64,000 nt of DNA from Escherichia phage fp01. The notes below the pieces were generated by a model. The model worked only from the letters and a program-made list of their open reading frames with translations. It did not search any database and had not been told where the DNA came from. The translations under genes were made by a program, and so were the position numbers. The stretch lies in sequence record NC_048731.1; one strand, given 5' to 3'. Shown here piece by piece: positions 5,191-39,051 of the stretch; the first letter of the stretch is position 1, and each line of letters begins with the position of its first letter.

Positions 5191-5749
5191 TCTTAATACT
5201 TTTTGGATCTTTACCTGTTAAGGATTTATAACGTTTACGTAGTCCGTTATCAGATAACCCTAACTCTTTTGATGCTTTAACCCATGAATAGTTTATTACC
5301 CAATATTCTATTTGCTCTGCTGTAATATCAGGGCTACTCTTAGGTTTACAGTCAAAACAAGTTTTAGAGGAAGAATTTATTTGTTTATTACAGTAAGGGC
5401 ATTTATTACCACCTATTGTATGCCCCCTTTCAACTGTAGTTTTTATTCTATGCTCTTCCTTGGTCATGACCACCAGATTATCTAAGGAAAAGTTCAATTT
5501 ATTCCTATCTTTGTGATCCACTTCTAGTTCAGATTCTAGTGAAGGTAAATCTTTAAATACTCTAGCTAATAATCTATGCAATACAATAGAGACATTCTTA
5601 CCCTGCTCATAGAACGTTACAAACGGATACCCTGCACTACCTAAGTGATGTGTTAGTAATTTATTACTCTTAGTAGAGTAAACCTCCCCATATGGGGAGA
5701 TTAAGTATTTGGGATACTCCGGAATTACTTTGAAATTCTCTAATTTCAT
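5168..5749 (-). CDS. HNH homing endonuclease
   Basis: 193 aa; HNH motif VDHKDRNKLNFSLDNLVVMTKEEHRIK; Cys pairs CPYC/CFDC; 3' end overlaps the tRNA-Gln(CTG) gene by about 23 nt. Confidence 0.7.
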   Translation of the reverse strand: MKLENFKVIPEYPKYLISPYGEVYSTKSNKLLTHHLGSAGYPFVTFYEQGKNVSIVLHRLLARVFKDLPSLESELEVDHKDRNKLNFSLDNLVVMTKEEHRIKTTVERGHTIGGNKCPYCNKQINSSSKTCFDCKPKSSPDITAEQIEYWVINYSWVKASKELGLSDNGLRKRYKSLTGKDPKSIKKKVSQVG

Positions 5750-5750
5750 C

Positions 5751-5951
5751 TTACTCTACAGGAACCGTGGCGATTGGTTCTGGATCTTCTAAACGTTTGC
5801 CTTCATGATCTACTCGAATAACTCCGCATCCCTCGCAAATCACAACAGCACCGTAGCCTTCTTTAACTTCAGCTTCTGTAATCAAACCAGAAAGATCACC
5901 AGTATCTCTGCCCCACATATCAATGGAGCATTGTTTGCAGAAATCAGCCAT
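5751..5951 (-). CDS. hypothetical Cys-rich small protein
   Basis: ORF track 66 aa; CKQC ... CEGCG motifs. Confidence 0.45.
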   Translation of the reverse strand: MADFCKQCSIDMWGRDTGDLSGLITEAEVKEGYGAVVICEGCGVIRVDHEGKRLEDPEPIATVPVE

Positions 5952-6053: not shown

Positions 6054-6422
6054 AATTGAAAACTCGCAGGGTTAGCGAAACCTTCCTCAATTAGCATGTT
6101 CTAGAATACTAATCAAGTTATCTCCTATTGCACGCAGCTCAAGACGAGTACGAATTTTCAATTGTGGCGGCTCTCCGAAACTCTTCTACTCTAGCCTTAG
6201 CAGCTTACTCCCGAACGCATGTCGGGAAAGTCTTACTAAGAGCATCAAATAGCACCGTTACACTTTGAGCCATAGATATATCAAGAAGCAGAAGGACTTG
6301 AACCTTCACGAGATAGACCATTTATCTCAGCCGCTTTATGAGGTATGTTGCAGGGAGTGGATGTTCCCTATAAACCTTTTAGGCAGCCCCGTCTACCGAT
6401 TCCGGCATACTTCAAGAATTTT

Positions 6423-7079: not shown

Positions 7080-7411
7080 AAATTCTTTAGTTTACTAAGG
7101 CTATTAGCTCGGCGTAACTACAGCACCTTCGCTTCGAGCGGAAGGAACTGCGTCATCTCGCAAACCCAATACACTATTCAGTTGCCACTGAATCTAGTGG
7201 ACTAATCTAGAACTTCTCCCGAATCGTAGGGATCGTGCTTTTTGGCAGCCAGTCCTAGGTCGAGCTAATACCTTAGTGAACTAAATTGATGGATACCAGA
7301 CTAATTTTGCTACGACGTTTATCCTGAGGATCTCTTTTTCGGTAGCTCTGCTAGTGTAGACGTCATACACCTGATATCTAGGCAGCTATTTTCGCATCAA
7401 TTTATATAAAT

Positions 7412-7538: not shown

Positions 7539-7706
7539 TTAGTAACCATTATATACTTCTTTAATAGAGTGAACTTTCAAGTAAGGGTGATTAGTATTAA
7601 ATTCTACCATTACTTCATCCCAATTTTTACCATAATGAGCAAGTAAGGATTTTGATGTATTCTTACCTAATCGTTTGTCACTTACTACTAATCGAAATAC
7701 TTTCAT
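7539..7706 (-). CDS. hypothetical small protein (55 aa)
   Basis: manual translation MKVFRLVVSDKRLGKNTSKSLLAHYGKNWDEVMVEFNTNHPYLKVHSIKEVYNGY; below ORF-track cutoff. Confidence 0.3.
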   Translation of the reverse strand: MKVFRLVVSDKRLGKNTSKSLLAHYGKNWDEVMVEFNTNHPYLKVHSIKEVYNGY

Positions 7707-7726
7707 TTCGAAATCCTCTATTAAAA

Positions 7727-7804
7727 TGGAAGCGGGTGCAGGGATCGAACCTACCTCTTTCTAGCTTATGAGACTAGCGATCTCTACCAGAGATCTAACC
7801 CGCA
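7727..7804 (-). tRNA. tRNA, anticodon CAT (Met/Ile2 family)
   Basis: D-stem GATC/GATC, anticodon stem CTAGT/GCTAG with loop CTCATAA, T-arm GTAGG-TTCGATC-CCTGC, position 1-72 unpaired, CCA encoded. Confidence 0.65.
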
Positions 7805-7810
7805 ATTGTT

Positions 7811-7886
7811 TGGTCAGTGCGGCAGGACTCGAACCTGCGACCCGAAGCATCCAAGGCTCCCACGCTACCAACTGCGCTACGCACTG
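7811..7886 (-). tRNA. tRNA-Pro (anticodon TGG)
   Basis: acceptor CAGTGCG/CGCACTG, D-arm GCGC-AGTTGGTA-GCGT, anticodon loop CTTGGAT, T-arm GCAGG-TTCGAGT-CCTGC, CCA encoded. Confidence 0.75.
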
Positions 7887-7917
7887 TTAATTTTTGTTAA
7901 CTCACTTTATAAAATAC

Positions 7918-7946
7918 ATTATACAGATAATTAAGCAGAATAGCAA
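7918..7946 (-). promoter_or_regulatory. T5-type early promoter (minus strand) upstream of tRNA-Pro/tRNA-Met
   Basis: plus attata 7918-7923, tagcaa 7941-7946, 17-bp spacer. Confidence 0.5.
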
Positions 7947-8083
7947 ATGAATTTTTAATAAATTTACTTATTGTGTAGGCCACCTGGAGGCTACCAACCC
8001 CACGGCTGACAAAGAAGTTTGCGAGACCTCTCTTAAATGCCAGAATAGACCCGCCAATCTATCGGAACCTACATAATAAGTAA

Positions 8084-8207
8084 ACTTTATAGTGTCATTC
8101 TAGACAGGACTCGAACCTGCTATCACTTGTGCGGACTTACGAGAACCATTCTTTCACTCGAGTCGAACGAGCTTCTGCCCTAGCCAAGCTGGTTTCCCCA
8201 TCAACCA
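8084..8207 (-). ncRNA. elongated tRNA-like gene (about 124 nt): perfect acceptor stem, D-arm and T-arm plus a ~49-nt insertion
   Basis: minus-strand 5' ATTCTAG (plus 8201-8207) pairs perfectly with 3' CTAGAAT (plus 8088-8094); D-arm TGGT-TGATGGGGAA-ACCA; T-arm GCAGG-TTCGAGT-CCTGT; an extra internal hairpin CTCG-TTCGACT-CGAG; no canonical anticodon arm. Confidence 0.35.
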
Positions 8208-8338
8208 CGCTAGAATGTTTGATTGTTTTCAGTGCAAGAGTCCGAGTCTTGGACACGACCGCTTCGCAAGTACATAGGCAGCTTATCATGAGTCAGCACT
8301 TCCGAATTGCTAGCTCCGTGTTCTGCACTGAAATTTTG

Positions 8339-8686
8339 TTAATTTAATAGTAAAGTATTATCTACTTCACCATTAATTGTTCGGCATTCTTCTGGGATTG
8401 CTGGGGTGGCCTTGTATTCCCACCACTCAGAACCATCATATTCACCACGTTCTAACCAAGTTCCATCAGTAAACCATACGTTACCGTAAAGCAATTGTCC
8501 ACCGAAACCAGAATCATATTTAAAGTCTAGATTATTTAGAAAATCTTCAATATCTTTTTCTGTATAACCTACTGGTAATACCCAAACTTCTTTGTCCCCA
8601 TAATAACCGAATTCTATCTTAATACACTTAACTTCAGAATTAGTATTCTTTAGGGCAAGTAACAACTCTTCTTTAGCATTAATCAT
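8339..8686 (-). CDS. hypothetical protein
   Basis: ORF track 115 aa. Confidence 0.5.
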   Translation of the reverse strand: MINAKEELLLALKNTNSEVKCIKIEFGYYGDKEVWVLPVGYTEKDIEDFLNNLDFKYDSGFGGQLLYGNVWFTDGTWLERGEYDGSEWWEYKATPAIPEECRTINGEVDNTLLLN

Positions 8687-8712
8687 AGCGTATTTCTCGT
8701 ACTAGTTTAGTT

Positions 8713-8788
8713 TGGTACACCCACTAGGACTTGAACCTAGAACCCTCCGCTTAAGAGGCGGTAGCTCTAACCATTGAGCTATGGATGT
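8713..8788 (-). tRNA. tRNA-Lys (anticodon CTT)
   Basis: acceptor ACATCCA/TGGGTGT, D-arm GCTC-AATGGTTA-GAGC, anticodon loop CTCTTAA, T-arm CTAGG-TTCAAGT-CCTAG, CCA encoded. Confidence 0.7.
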
Positions 8789-8969
8789 ATATTTGAAGAA
8801 TCTCTCGTAAGAATTTCTTCAAATACCCTCTCCTGTGAAAAAGGGATTTGCTTAATTATTGTGGCTAGGGCGCGGTAAAGCAGCTTTCTAGTCGGAAGCC
8901 CCAGAGCATATCCGTCTAAAGACCATATGTGACCTCCCCTATCTTTACCTACTCTGTACCCTAATTGTT

Positions 8970-9046
8970 TGGCGCGACCGATGGGATTCGAACCCACATT
9001 CTCTCCCGTGACAGGGGAGTACCATTACCAAGCCAGCCCCGGTCGC
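8970..9046 (-). tRNA. tRNA-Asp (anticodon GTC)
   Basis: acceptor GCGACCG/CGGTCGC, anticodon stem CTCCC/GGGAG with loop CTGTCAC, T-arm GTGGG-TTCGAAT-CCCAT, CCA encoded. Confidence 0.75.
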
Positions 9047-9055
9047 ATAATTCAT

Positions 9056-9241
9056 TTACTCAGCTTTGAGTTTTTCAATAGCTGCATTAAGTTCCTTAAG
9101 AAACTCTTTTCGTACATTAAGACGATTAAGACTTACTAGTATATCATGTTTAAGTTCTTCGATGTATTTCTTCTCCACTTCAATATTGTTGATAGTGCTA
9201 TCACGATGAACTTCTAGCTGCGCAATTACATTCTTGGACAT
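9056..9241 (-). CDS. hypothetical small coiled-coil protein
   Basis: ORF track 61 aa. Confidence 0.4.
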   Translation of the reverse strand: MSKNVIAQLEVHRDSTINNIEVEKKYIEELKHDILVSLNRLNVRKEFLKELNAAIEKLKAE

Positions 9242-9343
9242 GCTTGTTTCCTCAGTTATTAATGAAAATGGTATCTGTGGCTGAATTCGATATCAGCAAT
9301 GATAGCTGGTTGGCTACCGGTTTACTTAACTCTACACAGAATT

Positions 9344-11810: not shown

Positions 11811-11888
11811 TGGTGGCTCCCCGAGGATTCGAACCTACGTACCTTCCGGTTATGAGCCGGGTGCTCATACCATATGAGCTTGAGAACC
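11811..11888 (-). tRNA. tRNA, anticodon CAT (Met family)
   Basis: acceptor GGTTCTC/GGGAGCC, anticodon stem CCGG/CCGG with loop CTCATAA, T-loop TTCGAAT, CCA encoded; third CAT tRNA in the array. Confidence 0.6.
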
Positions 11889-15592: not shown

Positions 15593-16094
15593 TTTAAGTA
15601 TTTTTAAGAACTCTCGTAAAAACTCTTAAAAATACAGACGATACCGGGAGAGTCATAAGTCTCACTCATTAAGTATTTCAAGACAAAATACGGTAACGTC
15701 TATTATTTTCCAGTTTAAGTCAGGGTGACTTAGTGGTTATGTCCTGCGGTATATTGAGGACTCGGTTAGGCTTGGGGTCATGACTTCCCGCCTTTTGCTG
15801 CTACTCAACAGGAATTATCGCGAATTACCTGTGCTATTGTGCACCATTAGTGACATCTCTCATGTCAGCATTTCCCACTTTGTGGATAGCTTGAAAAACT
15901 ACTCCGATATGGAGAAAGAACTTCACTATCCTAGAATACCTTCTAAAGTTCTTCTTTAGTCTGGACATAGTTAAATCGTAATAAAACTATTCAGCAGACT
16001 GGTTGGTTAGTCTGGAACCAACTACCGCGTGGTTTAGGCAGTGCGCAACTAACCTCGGAAGCTTTTACATTAAAAGCACCAGTTATCCAGTTCT

Positions 16095-16175
16095 TACCGA
16101 CCGTAGGATTCGAACCTACATCTTCCACCAGTTACGGCTTGATAATACCAATTATACTAGGACGGCAGTGTTACT
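16095..16175 (-). ncRNA. degenerate tRNA-like element (pseudo-tRNA)
   Basis: T-arm GTAGG-TTCGAAT-CCTAC and acceptor GCCGTCC/GGTCGGT are present, but the D-arm is aberrant and no anticodon stem can be drawn. Confidence 0.35.
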
Positions 16176-16389
16176 ACATAAGTGATTTCCACACCCCACT
16201 ATTTATAAATTAGAGAAGAGTTTAGGGGAGAGGTTTCAGACGCCTCATTTTACACGTTCTAGCCACTAACCGGGATTGCCGCCCCCTGTGTACTAGTTTT
16301 ACAACTAACCCACCGACTCTATTCAATGCGCTCCGGTTGGGATTCTGCACTCAGCGTAATCGGCTCGCTGTTCCCTAATTTATGAATAT

Positions 16390-29415: not shown

Positions 29416-31290
29416 ATGAATCGCAATGAAGAACTAAAATATAAAGAAATGCAGGCGTTAATTAGAAACTGCAAAGAGATTATCGAAGGGTCAGCAGACG
29501 AAGAGCTGCTGTTTAATAATGCCAATAAACCCTCAGAACGTTTTCCTACACAAAGGGATATGCTTGCAGGTGAGTTGAGTAAGTATCTGATTCTAGAAGA
29601 AATGCCAATTCAGATTCGAAATGCTCATATGATTGGGGATATTCATTTCCATGATGCTGATTATGCTGCATTAGGCATGACTAACTGTTGCCTGGTAGCT
29701 CTGGAAGATATGTTAAAGAATGGTATGAAGGTTGGTAATGCTGAAATTAGCACTCCAAACTCTATCACTACTGCGGCGGCTATCACTGCTCAGATTATCA
29801 CTCAAGTTAGCTCCCATCAGTATGGTGGTACTTCTGTAGATCGCCTTGATGAAGTATTAGCCCCTTATGTTCGTAAATCATATGATAAAAATCATGCGTT
29901 TGCAAAACGTTGGACTAAGGATGAAGCCAAAGCATCCGTAATGGCTACGGAGATGACTGAAAAAGAAGTCTATGACGCTTGTCAGGGTTTAGAATATGAA
30001 ATCAATACCATGTTCAACTCTAATGGTCAGAGTCCATTTATTACCTTTGGTTTTGGTCTAGGAACTTCTTGGGAAGCACGTCTAGTACAGAAAGCAATAC
30101 TGAAAGTACGCATGGATGGTTTAGGTATCAATAAACGTACAGCTATCTTCCCGAAACTGGTATTTGTACTTCGTGATGGCGTAAATATGAAACCAGGAGA
30201 TGTTAATTATGACATCAAGAAGTTAGCTATGAAATGTACTGCTGAACGTATGTATCCAGATTATATCAGCTATGACAAGGTTGTAGAAGTTACTGGAGAC
30301 TACAAAGTTTCTATGGGCTGCCGTTCATTCCTAGCTGCTACAGAAGATGGTGAAACTGCCGGCCGTAATAACTTAGGTGTTGTTTCTGTAAACTTGCCTA
30401 GAATTGCTATCGAAGCTGAGGGAAATATTGACCTATTCTTTGATTTGCTTGAGCTACGTGTGGATACAGCGTTAAAAGCATTGGAGTGGAGAGTTGATCG
30501 CTTAAAATACATTCAAGCTAAAGCTGCACCTATCCTCTATATGTCAGGAGCCTTTGGGTTACGCTTGGAGCCTGATGAGTATGTATTCGATCATTTCTAT
30601 AACCGTGCTTCTGTATCTCTAGGGTATATTGGTTGCCATGAAATGCTACAGTTTATGTTTGGCAAAGATGTAGACACAATGTCCGAGACCTGCATCAAGT
30701 TTGTTCAGCGTGTATTGCAGTACATGCGGGATAGAGTCGATCAGAAGAAGGAAGAAACTAAGTTAGGTTATAGCCTGTATGCTACACCATCAGAATCCCT
30801 ATGTGACCGTTTTTGTCGTCTAGACCGTGAATATTTCCCAGAGCATGAAGATATTCTGTCCAAAGGATACTACACTAACTCGCACCACCTTGATGTAGAA
30901 CGTAAAGTTGCTCCCAATGTGAAATTTGATTATGAATCTAACTTTACTCCGATTGCTTCTGGTGGGTGCATTTCCTATGTAGAACTACCGGATATGAAAC
31001 GATTCCCAGATGCACTGGAATGGGTTATTAATTATGCTGCTAGTAAGGTTCATTACTTCGGTATTAATACCCCAGTGGATTCTTGTGGTAAATGTGGATT
31101 CTTAGGTGAAACAATAGCATCCGAAGATGGATTTAAGTGCCCTATCTGTGGTAATCATGACCCCGAAACTCTTGAAGTAACTCGTCGAGTTTGTGGGTAT
31201 CTTGGAAATCCGGGTGCTCGTCCATTTAACCCCGGCAAACAGCACGAGGTTATGGGCAGAGTGAAACATCAGGATATTCGAGCTAAATAA
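29416..31290 (+). CDS. nrdD: anaerobic ribonucleoside-triphosphate reductase (class III)
   Basis: 624 aa; C-terminal Zn-ribbon CGKCGF...CPICG followed by glycyl-radical motif TRRVCGYLG. Confidence 0.95.
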   Translation: MNRNEELKYKEMQALIRNCKEIIEGSADEELLFNNANKPSERFPTQRDMLAGELSKYLILEEMPIQIRNAHMIGDIHFHDADYAALGMTNCCLVALEDMLKNGMKVGNAEISTPNSITTAAAITAQIITQVSSHQYGGTSVDRLDEVLAPYVRKSYDKNHAFAKRWTKDEAKASVMATEMTEKEVYDACQGLEYEINTMFNSNGQSPFITFGFGLGTSWEARLVQKAILKVRMDGLGINKRTAIFPKLVFVLRDGVNMKPGDVNYDIKKLAMKCTAERMYPDYISYDKVVEVTGDYKVSMGCRSFLAATEDGETAGRNNLGVVSVNLPRIAIEAEGNIDLFFDLLELRVDTALKALEWRVDRLKYIQAKAAPILYMSGAFGLRLEPDEYVFDHFYNRASVSLGYIGCHEMLQFMFGKDVDTMSETCIKFVQRVLQYMRDRVDQKKEETKLGYSLYATPSESLCDRFCRLDREYFPEHEDILSKGYYTNSHHLDVERKVAPNVKFDYESNFTPIASGGCISYVELPDMKRFPDALEWVINYAASKVHYFGINTPVDSCGKCGFLGETIASEDGFKCPICGNHDPETLEVTRRVCGYLGNPGARPFNPGKQHEVMGRVKHQDIRAK

Positions 31291-31295
31291 GCTAA

Positions 31296-31330
31296 TCAGC
31301 CGGGTTGCTAGTCGACCTGGCTTTTATTTT
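31296..31330 (+). terminator. terminator-like hairpin plus T-run after nrdD
   Basis: AGCCGGGTTGCTAGTCGACCTGGCT hairpin followed by TTTTATTTTATTT. Confidence 0.45.
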
Positions 31331-31332
31331 AT

Positions 31333-31361
31333 TTGCTTTCAGCCAAAAATTTATATATAAT
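31333..31361 (+). promoter_or_regulatory. T5-type early promoter (plus strand)
   Basis: TTGCTT 31333-31338, TATAAT 31356-31361, 17-bp spacer; downstream AGATTTATAAATTTGAGAGGAG block. Confidence 0.55.
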
Positions 31362-31389
31362 AGATTTATAAATTTGAGAGGAGAAAGAT

Positions 31390-31770
31390 ATGGAATTAAA
31401 ACCCTATATAGTTGAATCTACATGTGGTAGTTTCCATCTGGGTGTGGATGATATTGCTGAGGCTGTCTTTGCTGCCACAGGTGATTACTCGCATATAGAG
31501 GGTGTTGCATACCCTACCATTATTGGCGATTGGGTGGGAACAAATCTAGATGTATCGCCTTATAACCCATATTGCTTGTTTGATGAAGATAGAGATGAAG
31601 TAAAATGTAATCTTGAATTTGTGTATAATAGAGTGTTAAAAGTATACCAACGTAGCCCCAATGGGTACGAAGATATTACTTGGAGTATTAAACAGTATCT
31701 TAAAGATATATACTCTAGTTTTTCTGACGAAGACCTAGAAACAGTTGCAGTGGAGTTTAATAATGACTAA
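31390..31770 (+). CDS. hypothetical protein
   Basis: ORF track 126 aa; no radical-SAM CxxxCxxC motif, so not an NrdG-type activase. Confidence 0.5.
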   Translation: MELKPYIVESTCGSFHLGVDDIAEAVFAATGDYSHIEGVAYPTIIGDWVGTNLDVSPYNPYCLFDEDRDEVKCNLEFVYNRVLKVYQRSPNGYEDITWSIKQYLKDIYSSFSDEDLETVAVEFNND

Positions 31771-31969
31771 GAATGTGAAACATCTTAAATATCGCTTAAT
31801 TTACAATGGACGTATGGAAACAGAAGATCTGGCCCAATTAGCTATTAATTCTAATGAGGTTACAGTGCGTGCGCTGGCAATTGAAAAGTTGCGTGCCTCT
31901 TATGAAAATCGTGTTATGGAACTAGAGGAGAAACTTTATGGCATTCTCGAAGCCGATGCTACCAGATAA
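31745..31969 (+). CDS. hypothetical protein
   Basis: ORF track 74 aa. Confidence 0.4.
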   Translation: MQWSLIMTKNVKHLKYRLIYNGRMETEDLAQLAINSNEVTVRALAIEKLRASYENRVMELEEKLYGILEADATR

Positions 31970-32159
31970 GGGTTTAAACGCTGCTTTGGAAAACGCATTA
32001 ATGCAGCACTGGGAAACTGGCTATAAGGATGGTGTTGAATCCTGTGCTACTATGCTAGAAGTTATTGCTAATACCTTAATGGAGAAAGGCAATAAAGAAT
32101 TAGCTGAGCTATTAGACAGTATTGGGCAAAATTTCAGAGAACAGGTGAAAAATGCGTAG
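31938..32159 (+). CDS. hypothetical protein
   Basis: ORF track 73 aa. Confidence 0.4.
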   Translation: MAFSKPMLPDKGLNAALENALMQHWETGYKDGVESCATMLEVIANTLMEKGNKELAELLDSIGQNFREQVKNA

Positions 32160-32988
32160 ATTAATTATTATTAGCGGTGCGGGTTTGAGTGTTGAAAGTG
32201 GTGTACGAGCTTTTCGTACTGATACTGCTAGTGGTAAAGCATTGTGGGATGATTATGATCTAGAAGAAGTATGTAATATTCATGCCTTTCGTGGTAACTT
32301 CTATCATAAAACCCATATGTTTTACAACAAGCGTCGTGAAGAGCTAAAAACTGTTGAACCCAATCTTGCGCATTTGCGTATTGGTGAATGGTATAAACAA
32401 TATCCAGGTCAGGTAGTAAACTTGACTACCAACGTTGATGACCTTATTGAGCGTGCTGGCGTTCCAAATAGTGACATTCTGCACATTCACGGATATTTAA
32501 AAGAGGTTGTTGTAGCTGATAGCTACAATAGTAGCAATAAACGGATTATTGATGTAGGATACAATTCTATTGATCCAGATGATTATAAATGGGTTAAACC
32601 TAATGTAATCTTCTTTGGGGAGCATGCTCCAGCGTATGCAGAAATGTACAATGTTTTTGATGGTATTACCAGTCAAGATATGATCATTGTGGTTGGTTGC
32701 TCTAACCAAGTAATTAACTTCTACTGGGAATTATTTCCTGTTCTTAATTTGAATGCTGCCAAACTAATGGTAGTTAACTACTATGATAGTGCCCTCGCAG
32801 CGGAACCGGGCTATCAAGGTATGACTCGTAGTGAGATGTACCAACTGGAAGAACGTGGTATCCCTTACTGGAGTAAAGGTGCGGTAGATGCTTTTAGTGA
32901 CCCTGATTTTATTGCTCGTGTAGAAGCTCATTTAGAGGGTAGACCTTATGTGTCGAGAAGCAAGGGAAACAGATATGTCCATAGTTAA
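32152..32988 (+). CDS. Sir2-family (sirtuin-like) NAD-binding protein
   Basis: 278 aa; GAGLSVESGVRAFR N-terminal motif, TTNVDDL block and HIHGYL (catalytic His); no CxxC...CxxC zinc-binding cluster. Confidence 0.7.
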   Translation: MRRLIIISGAGLSVESGVRAFRTDTASGKALWDDYDLEEVCNIHAFRGNFYHKTHMFYNKRREELKTVEPNLAHLRIGEWYKQYPGQVVNLTTNVDDLIERAGVPNSDILHIHGYLKEVVVADSYNSSNKRIIDVGYNSIDPDDYKWVKPNVIFFGEHAPAYAEMYNVFDGITSQDMIIVVGCSNQVINFYWELFPVLNLNAAKLMVVNYYDSALAAEPGYQGMTRSEMYQLEERGIPYWSKGAVDAFSDPDFIARVEAHLEGRPYVSRSKGNRYVHS

Positions 32989-33157
32989 ACCTGTGTATAC
33001 ACATCCTGATGATATATTTGTATGGGCGGACGGTAGTTGGTGCTATCGCTGTGAGCTGTGGGAAATGGATTATAAATCCGATGACTATGGTGTTATATAT
33101 GTTGATACGGTTGAGTATGATACGTTCTTAGAAAGGAACAAAAATGGAAATAAGTAA
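32948..33157 (+). CDS. hypothetical protein
   Basis: ORF track 69 aa. Confidence 0.35.
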   Translation: MCREARETDMSIVKPVYTHPDDIFVWADGSWCYRCELWEMDYKSDDYGVIYVDTVEYDTFLERNKNGNK

Positions 33158-33650
33158 TACTCCAATTATTTTTCTAGACATTGATGGGGTGCTCAATTCG
33201 AGCATCTCCCACCATCATGCACCTGATAATGAAAAGATTTTCTTTGGAAGTGACTGGGTTTTCAAACCCCTTCTCAAGGCTTTTCAGGATTTTATTCGTC
33301 CTTCTCCGATAATGATTGTTGGAGTATCCTCATGGTTCTCTGTCAGGAATGAGATGGAGAACGTTCAGATTATGACCGGATTAGGTCTTATCGATCGTTT
33401 TCTTGGTACAACGGATTTTACTGGGGGTGGATTATCTAGAGGTAATTCTGTTCTTCGTTTCGTTGAAAAGCATAAGCTCAAACATTGGTGTGTGCTTGAT
33501 GATGCTGGTGCTATGATGTATCAGTATCCAACGGTTATAGTCAACGGTAGGACTGGGATAAATCTTCAAGATTTAAAAGCTGTTAGCTATATGCTAGAAT
33601 TTAGCCCAGATCTTGAAATGTGTAAATCCTTACAACAATTTAAGGTGTAA
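33144..33650 (+). CDS. HAD-superfamily phosphatase-like protein
   Basis: 168 aa; HAD motif I IFLDIDGVLN near N-terminus, later VLDDAG acidic motif. Confidence 0.6.
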   Translation: MEISNTPIIFLDIDGVLNSSISHHHAPDNEKIFFGSDWVFKPLLKAFQDFIRPSPIMIVGVSSWFSVRNEMENVQIMTGLGLIDRFLGTTDFTGGGLSRGNSVLRFVEKHKLKHWCVLDDAGAMMYQYPTVIVNGRTGINLQDLKAVSYMLEFSPDLEMCKSLQQFKV

Positions 33651-33652
33651 AT

Positions 33653-34081
33653 ATGTTCAATAATGTATTCTCTAAAGAAGCTAACCCAATTTTGGTTAAC
33701 TTTTGGCGTACCCTCCCGGCTAGCCTGTATAATGAGGCTATTAACTCTTTGAAAATATGGTGTGAGAATAACGAAATCTCCTTTGCTTTTAAAGATGATA
33801 TTGATGAGGCCCCTTGTATTGGTTTAATTGTTCAGGTAGAGGAGGGTCTTGAAGAGATTGTCGGCTGGAAAGAGTTAGATGAAATGGGCTTAGTTTTTGC
33901 ATTAAACTATAAGCTGTTTATGCCTGCTAAGCATCGCCTCGTTGTTAACTATAAAACTAGTGAATCTCCTGGTTTTCAGGTTAATGAACGTTATGGTTGG
34001 TCTTACTCACCGGAAGAAGTAAATGAGGGGATTCAGAAACTTCGACGTTTCGGGTATATGATCCCAGGTTTAACTGCTTAA
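33653..34081 (+). CDS. hypothetical protein (paralog A)
   Basis: 142 aa; shares PCIG...W.EL..MGL..ALN..LF.P...PG motifs with the next gene. Confidence 0.5.
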   Translation: MFNNVFSKEANPILVNFWRTLPASLYNEAINSLKIWCENNEISFAFKDDIDEAPCIGLIVQVEEGLEEIVGWKELDEMGLVFALNYKLFMPAKHRLVVNYKTSESPGFQVNERYGWSYSPEEVNEGIQKLRRFGYMIPGLTA

Positions 34082-34090
34082 GGAGGCAAA

Positions 34091-34483
34091 ATGGAACAAG
34101 TATATTGGCGTCAGATTGACCCTAGTTTGGTAAAGCGTGCGGAAAAGCTGCTACAACGTTGGTTGGGAGTAAGACAAGCCTCCTTCACTTTTCCGGAGCA
34201 GCAAACGGATGATCCCTGCATTGGCGTTTTCCTGTCTGGGTATGCCGGGGAATGGGAGATGGACTGGAATGAATTGTCCGCTATGGGTTTAATTGTTGCC
34301 CTAAATTTCTCTTTGTTCCATCCACGTGGTTTTGCCATATGTCGTGTGCCGGATGATGGCTGTTCGCCACATCTTTTACAGGTGGAAGACGATATTTGGG
34401 AGTACACTCCAGGTATTCTCAAAGAAGCTAAAGAACAGTTAAACAGTGTTGGGATCTATGTTCCGGGATTAAATGATGAATAA
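34091..34483 (+). CDS. hypothetical protein (paralog B)
   Basis: 130 aa; tandem paralog of 33653-34081; GGAGG SD upstream. Confidence 0.5.
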   Translation: MEQVYWRQIDPSLVKRAEKLLQRWLGVRQASFTFPEQQTDDPCIGVFLSGYAGEWEMDWNELSAMGLIVALNFSLFHPRGFAICRVPDDGCSPHLLQVEDDIWEYTPGILKEAKEQLNSVGIYVPGLNDE

Positions 34484-34667
34484 AGAATATTGGGTATGTT
34501 ATGGTAAAATTAAAAAGTGGAATAAGGGTCAACTTTCAGCTAAGCAAGTAAAATTTATGGCAAGATATTTGACTGATCCCACTTTCGATATTAAAAAGTT
34601 AAGTAGCTCAAACCGCGCTATTATACTTAAATTTGCTAGTACTATTCGTGGTCTTTTTTATGATTAA
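34473..34667 (+). CDS. hypothetical protein
   Basis: ORF track 64 aa. Confidence 0.4.
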   Translation: MMNKEYWVCYGKIKKWNKGQLSAKQVKFMARYLTDPTFDIKKLSSSNRAIILKFASTIRGLFYD

Positions 34668-34743
34668 TCCGTATAACCGAGTCATTTTGACTCGGTTTTC
34701 TCTATGCTCAAAGACACTGATAGCACCTTTGGGAAAAATTTAC

Positions 34744-34772
34744 TTGCATGATGCCCAAAATCTTGATATAAT
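34744..34772 (+). promoter_or_regulatory. T5-type early promoter (plus strand)
   Basis: TTGCAT 34744-34749, TATAAT 34767-34772 with TG extension; downstream ATTTATATTGAATTGAGAG block. Confidence 0.55.
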
Positions 34773-35073
34773 ATTTATATTGAATTGAGAGACATTAGTA
34801 AAAATTGATTTTGCTAATTTTTCTTGTTTACAATCCGCGATACGGAACAGTTAGGCTGCCCCATTAAGGGTTGTTTTAACTGTTACGTGTTAGTTTTTAA
34901 ACAAATAGTTAATAGAATACTTAGCGATCTGCGTCCCATAGGAACCCTGGTAAGGCCTCGAAGCAACCTAGTATGAGGTGGTTGTGAAGTGAGATGGGAG
35001 GAGTGAAAAACTACCGAGACGTGATTCTGTAAGTTATATTGCATCTAGTATGAGCTAGTACATGAAGCATTAG

Positions 35074-38061
35074 GTGAGCAAATCTGGCTTAGCGGCCATC
35101 CTCAAGGATTTGTGCGGTATAATGAGGCAGCAGCGCAGCGTGAAAGTGGAAGTTGCCACCCCACTTCAGTATTTGCGATTAATTGTTGAGAAATTGACAG
35201 TAACAGTTGTTCTATTCTTTCTGAATAGTCCTAAAGAAAACTTATTTCATTTCCAACACAGGAGTATTGTTGTGTTCTCAATCCTACAAGGTCATGCAGG
35301 ATTTCATCGCGATTTAGCCACTGGCATTTGGCGAGAAGTTAAAGCAGAAGACTATCTTTTTGCTAAAAGATTTTCCTCAAAGCATCCTGAAGGTAAACCA
35401 GCTTCAATGCCCTTCAAGTTTGATGTAATTGATGAAATTGATCCTCAAACCCTAGTAGAAATGCTCCCCCTTATGAGACGTTTAACGTCTGACCCTCATA
35501 TCGTTGCGGTACGAGGACGATGTCTTGCACCCAAAAATAATGTGCGACGTAAGAAGGGCAACTTTAATGTATCTAACCCAAGTCATATAATTGCAATGGA
35601 CGTGGATGGTATTGTAGATACAGGTGGTTGTAACAAGTTTGATCTTGTTGGCATGGCTCGACATATTATTAGGATGTTAAATAGTATTAGTGAGGATATG
35701 TTTCCTCTTGATGCAGGGTTTATTGCTCATGCATCGTCTTCGGCTGGGCTAAAACCAGGTATCCGAATGCACTTAATACTAGAATCTAATGTTAAAGTAA
35801 CTCAGGGTCAAATCAAATTCTTATTTACATCTATCAACGAAAGTAGTAGACAAAAGTATGGCTTTGATATTGCCGACTTAGCTTATTACTCTTCCGTACA
35901 GCTCCATTATTTTGCAGATCCGTTGTTTACCGATGGTATAGTAGATCCGTTTAAAGCGGAGGGTGCTTCACGTCTGGTATTTGTTAAGGGTTCTAAAGTA
36001 AATTTACCCAATAATCTGGTTGACTATGAAACAACTAGAGGTGAGTTTAAAGAAGAGTTCTACTCTTTACTCGACCAAATTAAGGGTAAAAAAGCTGCCT
36101 CTGATAAAGTAGAAGAAACTATCAGCGAACTAGAAGAAGCTGAGGATGGAGTGTATCTACGTATTATTCCTAAACTCTATCACAGGGCTTTGGAGGATGG
36201 TGTTGATTTTGCATGGTTAGAAAAAGAAATCCGTCCAGCCTTATCAGAATATATTGCAACTAAAGATAATAGTCGTAATATTCAAGACTACTTTAATAAT
36301 GGTCGTAAACAGGCTCTAAAAGCGTTTGTTAATAATTCTAAACGTGATATACCGGATGTTTTAAAAGGTATTCCACTTAAAAAGCTAGAAACTAACTCTT
36401 TAGAGACTGATAACTTCTTGAAATTAAATACTGTACCACCAGAAGGTTATATGACTTTTGTAAAAGCAAGTTTAGGTACAGGTAAAACTACAGCGGTTGT
36501 GCGTTGGTTAGATTCAGGAGTTATTAAAGGTAATTTCTTAGCAATTACCAATACTCGAGCACTGGTATCTTCAAATGCTAAGAAATTTAGTGCAGGACAA
36601 TATGATAAGTCTGTAGATATGCTTAATTTTAAGCGTGGTGCTATTGACCGTATGTCCACAACTATTCACTCTTTGCATAAGTTCAAGAGTTTTATTGGTC
36701 AAATCGATGCAATCTTTATCGATGAATGTGATGCTGTAATGAATGACCTATTGTTCGCCCCTGTTGTTAAACAACGTCGTGAATGTATTCAGGTTCTTCG
36801 GGATATTCTTGCAACTGCAAAAATCATTATATTATCTGATGGTGATATTAGTGCAGAAACAATTGAAGCATATGGTTCTTTGATTGAGTTTGATAAACCG
36901 GTTGCATTTTATAATCATCACCGTAAAATGCTGTCAAAAGCTCATGCTTACGAGTTCCCTGACGAATCCAGTATTTGGGTTGCACTTCAGACTTCTCTAG
37001 AGATGGGTGAGAAATCTATTCTGGTATCTGACTGTGGGCCGGATGAACTGAATGAGAAGGGCATGGCGTTGCGTCGTAATACGGGTGCATTAGTTAAGGA
37101 AATCCACTCAAACTCTACGTCTGATGTAGATATTAGACGTATTCTGGATTACACAACTAATGAGCTAATTGACCAACAAATTGATTGCTTATTATGTAGT
37201 CCATCCGTAACGAGTGGTGTTGACTTTAACTATTTTGATAACGTATTCGTTATCACTAGAACTAGTAACCAAGCGCCAAACATGCGTTTCCAAGCAATCA
37301 GGCGCGACCGTGGTGCTCAGAACATTTATTATTTTATTGATAAATCTACGAGTGGATTCTCCGCAGGTTCTGAGCAATATAACATTGATGAAGGTTGGCT
37401 GGAGTTAGCACAGCAATTATACGCACGTCGAAGAGAGCTGGAATCTAGGAACTATACTAGTACTTTACGTTATTATTTGCTTGATCAAGGTGCAACTATT
37501 GATATTTTCAGTGAAAGCTGGGGAACTATCGAAGGTGCAGGAAAAGAGTATACGGAAGAGCGAATCAAAGCTATATTGTATTCAACTCCTGATTATTGTG
37601 CTCCACGTCATGCAGATGCGTATGAAGCTAAACTACTTCTTGTTCGCTATTATCATCTTGAATCTATTAAAGATGTAACAGTTGAGCATGTTGAACAATA
37701 TATCAAGGATAAACCGAATGATCGAGCAGCATTCTTCCATAAAATGCACGAGATGTTCTGGGAAGATATTAAGAAGTGTTCAAATGTCACTATCAAACCA
37801 TTCATAGAAGCTCTGAAAGGTAAGAAGAAAGATTTCTTCCTTAAAACAGGTCAGAGTGCTAACCCAAAATATGCCAGAATGTATCTTGGTATGATGGGTA
37901 TTGGTAAGGATATGAACACGGAGAATATTGTAGACTGGTACAGAACTTATTGTAAAATCGAGTGTATGCCAATCCCGTATAAGTTTATGACTGATGAGGA
38001 GAAACATATGCATGATGAAGCAATGGCAGAGCTAGGTGCTAGAAATGACAGTGAAGAATAA
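35074..38061 (+). CDS. large P-loop NTPase (helicase/origin-binding-like replication protein)
   Basis: 995 aa; Walker A ASLGTGKTTAV and Walker B IFIDECDAV; ORF-track start is GTG and the true start is uncertain. Confidence 0.65.
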   Translation: MSKSGLAAILKDLCGIMRQQRSVKVEVATPLQYLRLIVEKLTVTVVLFFLNSPKENLFHFQHRSIVVFSILQGHAGFHRDLATGIWREVKAEDYLFAKRFSSKHPEGKPASMPFKFDVIDEIDPQTLVEMLPLMRRLTSDPHIVAVRGRCLAPKNNVRRKKGNFNVSNPSHIIAMDVDGIVDTGGCNKFDLVGMARHIIRMLNSISEDMFPLDAGFIAHASSSAGLKPGIRMHLILESNVKVTQGQIKFLFTSINESSRQKYGFDIADLAYYSSVQLHYFADPLFTDGIVDPFKAEGASRLVFVKGSKVNLPNNLVDYETTRGEFKEEFYSLLDQIKGKKAASDKVEETISELEEAEDGVYLRIIPKLYHRALEDGVDFAWLEKEIRPALSEYIATKDNSRNIQDYFNNGRKQALKAFVNNSKRDIPDVLKGIPLKKLETNSLETDNFLKLNTVPPEGYMTFVKASLGTGKTTAVVRWLDSGVIKGNFLAITNTRALVSSNAKKFSAGQYDKSVDMLNFKRGAIDRMSTTIHSLHKFKSFIGQIDAIFIDECDAVMNDLLFAPVVKQRRECIQVLRDILATAKIIILSDGDISAETIEAYGSLIEFDKPVAFYNHHRKMLSKAHAYEFPDESSIWVALQTSLEMGEKSILVSDCGPDELNEKGMALRRNTGALVKEIHSNSTSDVDIRRILDYTTNELIDQQIDCLLCSPSVTSGVDFNYFDNVFVITRTSNQAPNMRFQAIRRDRGAQNIYYFIDKSTSGFSAGSEQYNIDEGWLELAQQLYARRRELESRNYTSTLRYYLLDQGATIDIFSESWGTIEGAGKEYTEERIKAILYSTPDYCAPRHADAYEAKLLLVRYYHLESIKDVTVEHVEQYIKDKPNDRAAFFHKMHEMFWEDIKKCSNVTIKPFIEALKGKKKDFFLKTGQSANPKYARMYLGMMGIGKDMNTENIVDWYRTYCKIECMPIPYKFMTDEEKHMHDEAMAELGARNDSEE

Positions 38062-38278
38062 AAAATGGGAAACAAGGAAGTTCCCAGTAAAAGAACGTAA
38101 AGTTCCTGTTTACGACACTTCGGAAAAGCTATGTAGGGTGGTACCACATAGATTAGCTGGCATCCCTAACATATCCGAGTGGTTACTTAAACAACGGAAA
38201 ACAAACGTGTCTCTTCGCATCGGCTTTGAGTTAGATAAAGTCTATGCTGAACTTGCTTCTTTGCTCAAGGAATCGTAA
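38036..38278 (+). CDS. hypothetical protein
   Basis: ORF track 80 aa. Confidence 0.35.
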   Translation: MLEMTVKNKKWETRKFPVKERKVPVYDTSEKLCRVVPHRLAGIPNISEWLLKQRKTNVSLRIGFELDKVYAELASLLKES

Positions 38279-38286
38279 AAATTTAT

Positions 38287-38315
38287 TTGCATAGTGCAAA
38301 AAATTTCTGTATAAT
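38287..38315 (+). promoter_or_regulatory. T5-type early promoter (plus strand)
   Basis: TTGCAT 38287-38292, TATAAT 38310-38315; downstream AGATTCATAAATTTGAGAGAGGAG block. Confidence 0.55.
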
Positions 38316-38346
38316 AGATTCATAAATTTGAGAGAGGAGTTTAAAT

Positions 38347-39051
38347 ATGGCTGGTTCTCGTAGAAAGAAACATATCCATGAAATCCCTGATGAAGTCTTT
38401 AAAAAGGTTATAGAGCATCTGGGGAACGGTGGTACTAAGAAAGCAGCATGTGAAATGCTCGGCGTATCATCTAATCCAACTATGGAAAGGATGATTGAAG
38501 AATGGCAAGACCGCCAGATTCAAGTTGCCGAAATGAAGAAAAAGAAACGTGGCACACTTATTGAAGGCATCGAGCTAGCTAACGTTATTGAGCAGTATTT
38601 GTCTGGTGATTCTTTTGAAGAGATTGCCGATCGTAATTATCGCTCTGTAGCAATGGTTAAATCTGTTCTGGAACGATATGGTGCTCTACTTCGTTTGAAC
38701 GATATTGTAGATCCATTGAATCCTCCGATTATTCCTGATGATGCTGTAGCAGAAGAATTTGCAGTTGGTGAGCTTGTTTGGGTTCCTGGATACCAGTGTA
38801 TCGGTGAAATCAAAAAAGCAATGGATAATCCTGTTGGTTGCTACCGTGTATGGCTTCTATCAGAAGGCAAACAACAGAACGTCCATTATATGAATTACGA
38901 GCTGGCCTCTGTTAAACATCTGGAAAAGCTAGGGGTTGACGTAAAGTCTCTGGGATATAAATGGACTCGTGAAGAAATTATTACGTTGATTAACGAAGCT
39001 GTTAAGGCTGCCCTGAAACTTGATAAAGAAAAAGGAAAACGCCGTGAGTAA
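38347..39051 (+). CDS. putative DNA-binding protein with N-terminal HTH
   Basis: 234 aa; TKKAACEMLGVSSNPTMERMIEEW helix-turn-helix-like segment. Confidence 0.5.
   Translation: MAGSRRKKHIHEIPDEVFKKVIEHLGNGGTKKAACEMLGVSSNPTMERMIEEWQDRQIQVAEMKKKKRGTLIEGIELANVIEQYLSGDSFEEIADRNYRSVAMVKSVLERYGALLRLNDIVDPLNPPIIPDDAVAEEFAVGELVWVPGYQCIGEIKKAMDNPVGCYRVWLLSEGKQQNVHYMNYELASVKHLEKLGVDVKSLGYKWTREEIITLINEAVKAALKLDKEKGKRRE

What the first reader, a model, noticed from the sequence alone, without database searches (positions are those of the whole stretch)
8084..8207. Elongated tRNA-like gene with a perfect acceptor stem and a second internal T-arm-like hairpin
On the minus strand, ATTCTAG (plus 8201-8207) and CTAGAAT (plus 8088-8094) form a perfect 7-bp acceptor stem. 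It is followed by a canonical D-arm (TGGT-TGATGGGGAA-ACCA) and preceded at the 3' side by a canonical T-arm (GCAGG-TTCGAGT-CCTGT). The unit is about 124 nt because roughly 49 nt, including another T-arm-like hairpin (CTCG-TTCGACT-CGAG), sit between the anticodon region and the T-arm, and no standard anticodon arm can be drawn. It could be an insertion-bearing or fused tRNA, a pseudo-tRNA, or a tRNA-derived regulatory RNA.
Basis: seen in the sequence. Interest (0 to 1): 0.6.

Follow-up and report, generated by a model that had tools for sequence, protein, structure and literature searches.

The report
Known phage tRNA-like RNA2 gene
This is the T5-type phage gene "RNA2", a transfer-RNA-shaped molecule whose anticodon loop is replaced by a conserved folded insert of about 55 bases; the gene is already annotated in phages T5 and BF23, its function is unknown, and I find relatives in very different phages.

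Summary
The 7-bp stem pairs 8216-8210 with 8103-8097 on the minus strand, and the whole RNA spans 8093-8217. It is 96-98% identical to misc_RNA "rna2" of phage T5 st0 (AY692264) and of BF23 (NC_042564). BF23's curators describe it as "tRNA-like RNA with unknown functions". The gene is therefore already known, though not characterised.

ARAGORN and Rfam do not call it. A covariance model built here scores it at 104 bits (E about 1e-25). Ordinary tRNAs fit the same model end to end once the insert is deleted.

In 48 distinct homologues, compensatory changes support all five main helices: acceptor, D stem, an anticodon-like stem, the second T-hairpin and the T-arm. In total 89% of cells pair, against 60% in shuffles.

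Relatives occur in T5-like, Klebsiella and Pectobacterium phages, in 160-170 kb phage contigs including an Acinetobacter phage, and in 250-363 kb jumbo-phage contigs. They usually lie inside tRNA clusters.

Best reading: a non-decoding RNA on a tRNA scaffold that displays a conserved module. The module's target is unknown. A viable T5 deletion strain lacks the gene.

The parts
8093..8217 (-). Whole RNA2 gene as delimited in the T5 and BF23 records (125 nt: C(-1), 120-nt tRNA-like body, discriminator G, then ACA)
   Evidence: Alignment to AY692264 rna2. blastn to BF23 RNA2 gives 97.6% identity. Covariance-model hit 8093-8219, 104.4 bits.
8210..8216 (-). Acceptor stem, 5' strand AUUCUAG. An eighth pair, C8217-G8096, is possible.
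   Evidence: Sequence. All 7 pairs show changes on both sides across 48 sequences; 88% of cells pair.
8190..8207 (-). D-arm: stem UGGU/ACCA and loop UGAUGGGGAA containing the GG
   Evidence: Sequence. All 4 stem pairs have compensatory changes.
8185..8188 (-). Anticodon-like stem P1, 5' strand CUUG (pairs with 8126-8129)
   Evidence: All 4 pairs have compensatory changes; 91.5% of cells pair. It is the top pair in my own mutual-information scan.
8130..8184 (-). Insert of 55-56 nt that replaces the anticodon loop. In order: J1/2 GCUA, P2 GGGC/GUCC, P3 AGAA/UUCU, the T2 hairpin, the bulge GAAAGAAUGG, CGUAA, and GCA.
   Evidence: Segmentation checked against the sequence. The insert is 52-63 nt in 39 members. 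CGUAA is invariant, UCC nearly so (38 of 39), and GCA nearly invariant. This invariance is partly forced by how members were retrieved.
8156..8172 (-). Second T-arm-like hairpin T2: stem GCUCG/CGAGU and loop UUCGACU
   Evidence: 4 of its 5 pairs have compensatory changes; 92% of cells pair. The loop is UUCGAUU in 36 of 39 members. It is also kept in members retrieved with a pattern that did not specify it.
8177..8180 (-). Proposed helix P2, 5' strand GGGC (pairs with GUCC at 8133-8136)
   Evidence: Only the innermost pair varies: U-A 18, C-G 12, not paired 17. Support is modest.
8142..8145 (-). Proposed helix P3, 3' strand UUCU (pairs with AGAA at 8173-8176). The register differs between clades.
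   Evidence: The pair at alignment columns 53:96 shows A-U 19, G-C 9, U-A 3, C-G 1. The natural variant L334 lacks T2 and closes P3 as GAAGU/ACUUC. Support is modest.
8126..8129 (-). Anticodon-like stem P1, 3' strand CAAG
8121..8125 (-). 5-nt variable loop UGAUA
   Evidence: Sequence. Its position is that of the variable loop of a class I tRNA (established tRNA anatomy).
8104..8120 (-). True T-arm: stem GCAGG/CCUGU and loop UUCGAGU
   Evidence: 3 pairs have compensatory changes and 2 are invariant G-C; 95% of cells pair.
8097..8103 (-). Acceptor stem, 3' strand CUAGAAU, followed by discriminator G8096 and then ACA. No CCA is encoded.
   Evidence: Sequence. Three of 39 homologues encode N-CCA here: UCCA twice and GCCA once.

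Best explanation
The element is the orthologue of the T5/BF23 gene rna2 (RNA2). It is a non-decoding, tRNA-derived structured RNA.

Shown: it keeps a complete tRNA frame. That frame has a 7-bp acceptor stem, a D-arm with GG, a 4-bp anticodon-like stem, a 5-nt variable loop, and a T-arm with a canonical T-loop. The 7-nt anticodon loop is replaced by a conserved module of about 55 nt, which contains a second hairpin with a nearly invariant T-loop (UUCGAUU). All five helices are maintained by compensatory substitutions in phages that share nothing else. The gene usually sits on the tRNA strand, within or beside tRNA clusters and often within 0-10 nt of a neighbouring tRNA.

Inferred: it is co-transcribed with its neighbours. 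The host tRNA-processing enzymes (RNase P, 3' trimming, the CCA-adding enzyme) cut it out and stabilise it because of its tRNA frame. In this it resembles the engineered 'tRNA scaffold' used to express foreign RNAs.

Inferred: the module is the working part. I model it as an irregular coaxial stack, P2-P3-T2, capped by a T-loop. A conserved A-rich bulge ending in YGG could dock on that loop, giving a second tRNA-'elbow'-like head on the end of the anticodon arm. It most likely binds a host or phage factor that recognises tRNA shape, so the RNA would act as a mimic or decoy rather than in decoding. The partner is unknown.

The gene appears dispensable for T5 growth on laboratory E. coli.
For: Orthology and annotation: 96% identity and the same gene order as AY692264 rna2. 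97.6% identity to NC_042564 RNA2, annotated 'tRNA-like RNA with unknown functions'.

tRNA frame: model R1 scores the window copy at 104.4 bits, and ordinary tRNAs match the same model end to end at 20-46 bits with the insert deleted.

Not a decoding tRNA: there is no ARAGORN call even with introns allowed, and no Rfam hit at the gathering threshold or at E up to 10.

Covariation: across 48 distinct sequences, 89.1% of cells pair against 60.5% in shuffles. There are 452 double-change cells against 138, and the covariation score is 0.673 against 0.166 (0 of 500 shuffles reach it). Slid controls give 34-48%. An alignment not fitted to the structure gives the same acceptor, D, T2 and T helices, and a mutual-information scan recovers all five helices, including the anticodon-like stem.

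Distribution: 480 phage records match. Members occur in IMG/VR contigs of 100-363 kb and in metagenomes. Only one of 60 hits in 185,579 species genomes is a true member, on a 167-kb contig that carries 14 tRNA genes in 8 kb. No match was found in 5,426 E. coli genomes.

tRNA-cluster context.

Dispensability: T5Mos lacks 30661-38625 and is viable (PMC11464382). RNA2 lies at 32959-33083 of the 121,750-bp T5 contig.
Against: I found no expression, end-mapping or CCA data. The BF23 record calls RNA2 'tRNA-like' but calls RNAI, III, IV, 2H and X 'stable RNA', so RNA2 may never have been seen as a discrete species.

Most copies, including this one, do not encode CCA, whereas the neighbouring phage tRNA genes whose 3' ends I read do.

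The acceptor stem is weak or absent in some clades, notably the 160-170 kb phage contigs and L052. That weakens the claim that tRNA-type processing is universal.

The single-sequence fold is no better than shuffled sequence (z = -0.51).

The interior helices P2 and P3 rest on one to three covarying pairs each. An alternative pairing, YGG with CCR, is 98% compatible.

No neighbouring protein recurs that could point to a partner.

Part of the apparent invariance of the module comes from the search patterns used to find members.
Confidence: 0.72

Rival explanations
1. It is an intron-bearing tRNA gene. The insert of about 48-55 nt is removed and a functional tRNA results; ARAGORN's relaxed reading is tRNA-Arg(CCG).
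For: With the score threshold lowered to 80%, ARAGORN calls tRNA-Arg (ccg) at 8216-8096 with a 48-nt intron starting at position 34. The conserved UCCGCA would then supply U33, anticodon CCG, and positions 37-38.
Against: At default thresholds ARAGORN finds nothing, even with introns allowed. Position 37 would be C (or U in the clade with UCCAUA), whereas tRNAs carry a purine there (established tRNA anatomy). The intron would sit at 32/33 rather than the usual 37/38. About 50 nt is far too short for a group I intron, and by established knowledge bacteria have no splicing endonuclease for short protein-spliced introns. The 5' junction nucleotides differ between near-identical phages (GCUA, GCGA, GCUU, CCGA). 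The insert is better conserved than the supposed exons, which is the opposite of what introns show.
Confidence: 0.07
2. It is a cis-acting processing signal. The tRNA-like shape only recruits RNase P and 3' nucleases, to separate the upstream mRNA (ORF 8339-8686) from downstream RNAs, and the excised piece has no function of its own.
For: In this window it lies between a protein gene and RNAIV, with no promoter-like or terminator-like site nearby until the promoter-like site at 7946-7918 (T5 promoter P13a). tRNA-like punctuation of this kind is known from organelle transcripts (established knowledge).
Against: Punctuation needs only an acceptor/T minihelix. It does not explain a nearly invariant 55-nt module kept across unrelated phages. 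In many phages the element lies directly between ordinary tRNAs, which already provide cleavage sites.
Confidence: 0.1
3. It is a decayed pseudo-tRNA carrying junk sequence, or a piece of the 50-codon ORF (8137-8289, minus strand) that some genome records annotate as a hypothetical protein.
For: An ORF of 50 codons overlaps it and is annotated in, for example, phage WP85. tRNA finders reject the element.
Against: There are paired compensatory substitutions in five helices, including acceptor stems of entirely different sequence: AUUCUAG/CUAGAAU, UACGGGG/UCCCGUA and GUGUCAU/AUGACAC. The element is retained in phage groups that share no other DNA similarity. In other clades it is packed between tRNAs, which leaves no room for the ORF.
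Confidence: 0.03

Closest known systems
RNA2 (gene rna2) of phages T5 and BF23: GenBank AY692264 misc_RNA 32962-33086; NC_042564 misc_RNA 5701-5825, 'tRNA-like RNA with unknown functions'
   Same: It is the same gene. Identity is 96-98%, the length is the same 125 nt, and the position is the same, downstream of the T5p065 / ORF trn 2.10 homologue and upstream of RNAIV.
   Different: There are only point substitutions, for example T2 loop UUCGACU here against UUCGAUU in T5. BF23 has an extra tRNA-Gly between RNA2 and RNAIV that this window lacks.
Phage T4 species 1 and species 2 RNAs (rnaC, rnaD)
   Same: They are small RNAs encoded in a phage tRNA cluster on the tRNA strand, and their role is still unknown (PMC3014915).
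   Different: Model R1 does not match them; in the T4 locus only the true tRNAs score. No shared module was detectable.
Canonical tRNA (Rfam RF00005)
   Same: It has an acceptor stem, D-arm, anticodon-type stem, 5-nt variable loop, T-arm and T-loop. Ordinary tRNAs align end to end to the family model.
   Different: It has no 7-nt anticodon loop, no U33 in context and no anticodon. A 52-63-nt structured insert stands there instead. RF00005 and ARAGORN do not call it.
Engineered 'tRNA scaffold' for recombinant RNA expression (Ponchon and Dardel, 2007; from my own knowledge, not checked here)
   Same: The design is the same: a foreign structured RNA is grafted onto the anticodon stem so that the tRNA frame drives processing and protects the RNA from nucleases.
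   Different: This one is natural, evolutionarily conserved and encoded by phages. Whether it is processed in the same way has not been tested.
tmRNA and bacterial Y-RNA-like YrlA (tRNA-like domain plus a second functional domain)
   Same: They show the same general logic: a partial tRNA mimic is fused to another functional RNA domain.
   Different: ARAGORN finds no tmRNA and there is no tag reading frame. Rfam gives no hit to tmRNA or YrlA at E up to 10. By my recollection, the 5' and 3' ends of YrlA lie at the anticodon-side helix rather than at the acceptor stem, so the topology is permuted.

Membership tests
T5/BF23 RNA2 (rna2) | Sequence orthology to the annotated misc_RNA | tested here: met
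   96% identity to AY692264 rna2 over 125 nt. 97.6% identity to NC_042564 RNA2.
T5/BF23 RNA2 (rna2) | Same genomic position: after the 115-aa ORF (T5p065 / trn 2.10) and before RNAIV and promoter P13a | tested here: met
   ORF at 8339-8686, RNA2 at 8093-8217, RNAIV at 7972-8074, promoter-like site at 7946-7918.
T5/BF23 RNA2 (rna2) | Exists as a discrete RNA in infected cells | not testable with these tools
   No transcript data were available. The record's note says only 'tRNA-like RNA with unknown functions'.
Canonical decoding tRNA | 7-bp acceptor stem, D-arm, and T-arm with a T-loop | tested here: met
   Sequence and covariation.
Canonical decoding tRNA | 5-bp anticodon stem closing a 7-nt loop with U33, an anticodon and a purine at position 37 | tested here: not met
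   A 4-bp stem closes 56 nt. No ARAGORN or Rfam call.
Canonical decoding tRNA | Aminoacylation and a 3' CCA end | not testable with these tools
   CCA is not encoded here (G-ACA). N-CCA is encoded in 3 of 39 homologues. The discriminator base and the first acceptor pairs are not conserved.
Intron-containing tRNA (group I or protein-spliced) | Removing the insert restores a standard anticodon loop; the intron carries recognisable splicing features | tested here: not met
   Only a sub-threshold ARAGORN call exists, with C at position 37. The junction varies among close relatives. The insert of 52-63 nt is too short for a group I intron. No Rfam intron hit.
T4 rnaC / rnaD | Detectable homology in sequence and structure | tested here: not met
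   Model R1 gives no hit at L113 4909-5172.
tmRNA | tRNA-Ala-like domain plus a tag reading frame and pseudoknots | tested here: not met
   ARAGORN default finds no tmRNA. No Rfam hit.
YrlA / Y RNA | Match to the Rfam model; a Ro-binding helix formed by the 5' and 3' ends | tested here: not met
   No Rfam match at E up to 10. Here the ends form the acceptor stem. Ro binding cannot be tested with these tools.

The most novel reading that the evidence does not exclude
RNA2 may be the T5 representative of a widespread, so far undescribed family of phage non-coding RNAs: a 'two-headed' tRNA in which a second minihelix-and-elbow mimic (P2-P3-T2 with an invariant T-loop) sits on the anticodon arm. 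The family is kept in T5-like phages, in 160-170 kb phages including an Acinetobacter phage, and in jumbo phages. It could trap or redirect a host factor that reads tRNA shape, such as a tRNA-targeting defence nuclease, a processing or modification enzyme, or a ribosome-associated factor. It would then add an RNA decoy to the known phage counter-defence by tRNAs. Rfam 15 has no such family, and I found no paper that describes it.
Probability: 0.3. Interest if true: 0.7.

Novelty: already known. Interest (0 to 1): 0.4.

Why it matters
The small stable and tRNA-like RNAs encoded in the tRNA clusters of T-series phages have had no known function for decades. A T4 review still says so for RNAC and RNAD (PMC3014915).

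This work does not discover a new gene. It does three things:
- It corrects the coordinates.
- It links the element to an existing annotation that most T5-like genome records omit or replace with a spurious 'hypothetical protein'.
- It gives a covariation-supported secondary structure and a 48-sequence alignment.

The alignment shows the same design in unrelated phage groups. That makes the function testable by deletion, pull-down and structure probing. It is timely because T5 tRNAs were recently shown to neutralise tRNA-cleaving defence systems (PMC11464382).

Tried and rejected
- ARAGORN (default, and with introns) and Rfam (gathering threshold, and E up to 10) gave no call for the element.
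- Single-sequence MFE folding did not recover the cloverleaf and was no better than shuffles (z = -0.51). It is uninformative here.
- A MAFFT alignment of all clades put the T2 hairpin of the T5-type copies one column out of register. I therefore built the model from 12 other sequences and realigned everything to it.
- I tested a pairing of the GC after P1 with the GC of GCA. There is no covariation: the 5' side varies and the 3' side is fixed. One tool call for this used wrong columns and is disregarded.
- The alternative interior helix YGG/CCR is compatible in 98% of cells but shows only one-sided changes. It is neither adopted nor excluded.
- Homology of T5 RNA1 to RNA2 through the shared GGUUGAGAU..AAUGGUCU..CUCGU motif is not supported. 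The local alignment score of 38.5 falls within the shuffle range (mean 26, maximum 46.5), and R1 does not hit RNA1.
- T4 rnaC and rnaD are not members: no R1 hit.
- No protein partner emerges from gene neighbourhood. Neighbours include an RF-1 domain protein, a YqeY-like protein, an RNA ligase and an R2K ATP-grasp protein in different phages, and none recurs.
- Looking for a host sequence that the RNA might mimic found no match in E. coli genomes.
- Loci around distant homologues of the neighbouring ORF (L026-L036) contain no RNA2.
- Eight valid literature searches found no description of RNA2's structure, expression or function.

Full report
**1. What is in the sequence**

The window is the tRNA region of a T5-like phage. 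ARAGORN finds 23 tRNAs on the minus strand. A megablast of 7880-8720 finds 365 phage records; the best-scoring are Salmonella phages, and those I opened are classified as Tequintavirus.

Read on the minus strand, the element has these parts:
- acceptor AUUCUAG, 8216-8210
- CG
- D-arm UGGU/UGAUGGGGAA/ACCA, 8207-8190
- G
- CUUG, 8188-8185
- a 56-nt insert, 8184-8130
- CAAG, 8129-8126
- variable loop UGAUA
- T-arm GCAGG/UUCGAGU/CCUGU, 8120-8104
- acceptor CUAGAAU, 8103-8097
- discriminator G, then ACA

Its span 8084-8207 loses the 5' acceptor strand.

**2. Identity**

The T5 st0 record AY692264 annotates a misc_RNA 'rna2' (125 nt) between the T5p065 homologue and RNAIV. Pairwise alignment places it at window 8093-8217, and RNAIV at 7972-8074.

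It is 97.6% identical to the window copy.

All other T5/BF23 misc_RNAs also have homologues in the window. So the gene and its tRNA-likeness are already on record. Most other T5-like genome records leave it blank or annotate an overlapping 50-codon ORF instead.

**3. Standard software does not resolve it**

ARAGORN (default, and with introns allowed) and Rfam 15 (gathering threshold, and E up to 10) give no call. Only at an 80% score threshold does ARAGORN propose tRNA-Arg(CCG) with a 48-nt intron. The minimum-free-energy fold of the single sequence is unremarkable (z = -0.51).

**4. Relatives**

A sensitive blastn finds 480 phage records. They include Klebsiella Sugarlandvirus (76-78% identity), Pectobacterium DU_PP_V, and a 73-nt match in the 167-kb Acinetobacter phage vB_AbaSt_W16.

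Two pattern scans of IMG/VR, one of metagenomes and one of 185,579 species genomes were screened with a covariance model, R1. I built R1 from 12 copies other than the window's.

Members score 46-126 bits and are 105-125 nt from acceptor strand to acceptor strand. A few outliers, described in section 6, are shorter or longer. They occur in:
- T5-like genomes
- contigs of 155-170 kb
- jumbo-phage contigs of 250-363 kb
- many unclassified metagenome contigs

Of 60 hits in cellular genomes, only one is a true member. It lies on a 167-kb contig with 14 tRNAs in 8 kb, which is probably a phage. No match exists in 5,426 complete E. coli genomes.

The window copy scores 104.4 bits, E = 4e-25. Ordinary tRNAs match R1 end to end at 20-46 bits with the insert deleted. 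This shows directly that the frame is a tRNA.

**5. Structure**

On the model-guided alignment of 48 distinct sequences (A6), I counted seven helices:

| Measure | Observed | Shuffled |
|---|---|---|
| Cells that form a standard pair | 89.1% | 60.5% |
| Cells with a change on both sides | 452 | 138 |
| Covariation score | 0.673 | 0.166 |

None of 500 shuffles reached the observed values. Sliding the partners by 1-3 columns gave 34-48% pairing.

Compensatory changes per helix:
- acceptor: 7 of 7 pairs
- D stem: 4 of 4
- anticodon-like stem P1: 4 of 4
- second T-hairpin T2: 4 of 5
- T stem: 3 of 5 (the other two are invariant G-C)

Acceptor sequences differ completely between clades: AUUCUAG/CUAGAAU, UACGGGG/UCCCGUA, GUGUCAU/AUGACAC, and a 10-bp stem GUGUUAUCUG/CAGACGACAC.

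A MAFFT alignment not fitted to any structure gives the same acceptor, D, T2 and T helices with RNAalifold. My own mutual-information scan recovers all five helices, including P1, as its top pairs.

Inside the insert, two further helices have modest support:
- P2 (GGGY/RUCC): the innermost pair is U-A in 18, C-G in 12 and unpaired in 17.
- P3: the pair at columns 53:96 is A-U 19, G-C 9, U-A 3, C-G 1.

P3 is also supported by a natural variant, L334. It lacks T2 and closes P3 as a simple hairpin. A competing pairing, YGG/CCR, is compatible but shows only one-sided changes.

**6. The module**

Conserved features are RGGG, the T2 loop UUCGAUU (36 of 39 members), an A-rich bulge ending in YGG, CGUAA, UCC and GCA.

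One caveat applies. The first search pattern required GGUUCGAUUCC and CGUAAnnCC, so part of this invariance is forced by the search. Two observations limit the concern. Copies found by BLAST show only single substitutions in the T2 loop. Members retrieved by a pattern that did not specify T2 keep UUCGAUU on stems of different sequence.

The T2 loop is more uniform than the true T-loop, which has 12 variants. Two further contigs carry about 50 extra nt inside T2.

**7. Context and dispensability**

Members lie on the tRNA strand, and many are within 0-10 nt of a neighbouring tRNA. In this window no terminator-like site lies in 7700-9100. The next promoter-like site is at 7946-7918, which corresponds to T5 promoter P13a. 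Co-transcription with the upstream genes, followed by processing, is therefore inferred.

Neighbouring proteins differ from phage to phage: an RF-1 domain protein, a YqeY-like protein, an RNA ligase and an R2K ATP-grasp protein.

The viable strain T5Mos lacks 30661-38625 (PMC11464382). RNA2 lies at 32959-33083 of the 121,750-bp T5 contig. The gene is therefore dispensable on laboratory hosts, assuming the paper uses that coordinate system.

**8. Interpretation**

- *Shown:* a tRNA-derived, structurally constrained RNA gene that cannot decode.
- *Inferred:* it is matured and stabilised through its tRNA frame, and it presents the module as its functional part.
- *Model:* P2, P3 and T2 stack into a 12-13-bp helix capped by a T-loop, about the size of the acceptor/T minihelix of a tRNA. 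The bulge GG is available to dock on the loop as D-loop G18/G19 do in tRNA. The result would be a second 'elbow' on the anticodon arm. This model is a hypothesis.
- *Most likely role:* mimicry of tRNA shape toward a host or phage factor. No partner is identified.

**9. Rivals**

- *Intron-bearing tRNA.* It is unlikely. Position 37 would be a pyrimidine, the junction varies, there is no splicing machinery or intron signature, and the insert is more conserved than the supposed exons.
- *Pure processing punctuation.* It does not explain the conserved module.
- *Pseudo-tRNA or the overlapping ORF.* Covariation refutes both.

**10. Verdict**

The gene is already annotated as RNA2 in T5 and BF23 with unknown function. 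The new contributions are the covariation-supported structure and the finding that the design is shared by distant phage groups and is absent from Rfam 15.

Noticed in passing
window 8220-8338 (minus strand), between the ORF stop and RNA2: This 119-nt intergenic stretch is almost invariant. It occurs in 218 phage records, 152 of them at least 99% identical, which is tighter than RNA2 itself. Its ends can pair (CAGUGCAGA...CUUGCACUG); the fold gives -31.7 kcal/mol, z = -1.34. It is not annotated in the T5 or BF23 records, and it is absent where RNA2 directly follows tRNA-Lys (Epseptimavirus).
   Followed up: partly
window 7972-8074 (minus strand): This is the homologue of T5/BF23 RNAIV, a 'stable RNA with unknown functions'. 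It is 95% identical and lies 18 nt downstream of RNA2. It is closed by a long terminal stem, UAUUAUGUAGG...CCUACACAAUAA; z = -1.61.
   Followed up: partly
window 6055-6160, 6165-6271, 6272-6416, 7099-7270, 9269-9341, 15593-16376 (all minus strand): These are homologues of the other T5/BF23 misc_RNAs: RNAIII, RNAI, RNA1, RNA2H, RNA3 and the 784-nt RNAX. None has a known function. The Rfam tRNA hit at 16095-16166 (35.5 bits, not called by ARAGORN) lies inside RNAX.
   Followed up: partly
window 11811-11888 (minus strand): Rfam calls a tRNA here (40.3 bits) that ARAGORN misses. It is 97% identical to BF23 tRNA-Ile2.
   Followed up: partly
L040 566-686 and 702-932 (Acinetobacter phage vB_AbaSt_W16, PP174317): In this 167-kb phage the RNA2-like element sits 15 nt upstream of a 76-aa ORF with an RF-1 (peptide release factor / ArfB-like) domain, Pfam E = 3e-10. 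Other members I examined (L163, L051, L053) do not share this neighbour.
   Followed up: partly
L334 1048-1153; L308 7915-8087 and L331 11916-12088: These are natural architectural variants of the family. L334 lacks the T2 hairpin altogether, and its P3 is closed by a 4-nt loop. L308 and L331 carry about 50 extra nt inside the T2 loop.
   Followed up: no
window 8137-8289 (minus strand); L002 536-688: A 50-codon ORF overlapping RNA2 is annotated as a 'hypothetical protein' in several T5-like genome records, for example WP85_CDS105. Given the RNA-type covariation, this is probably a mis-annotation.
   Followed up: partly
L084, L163, L053, L052 (contigs that also carry an RNA2-like element): ARAGORN reports tRNAs with anticodon CUA in these clusters, which it labels 'tRNA-Pyl'. 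They would be amber-suppressor-type tRNAs.
   Followed up: no
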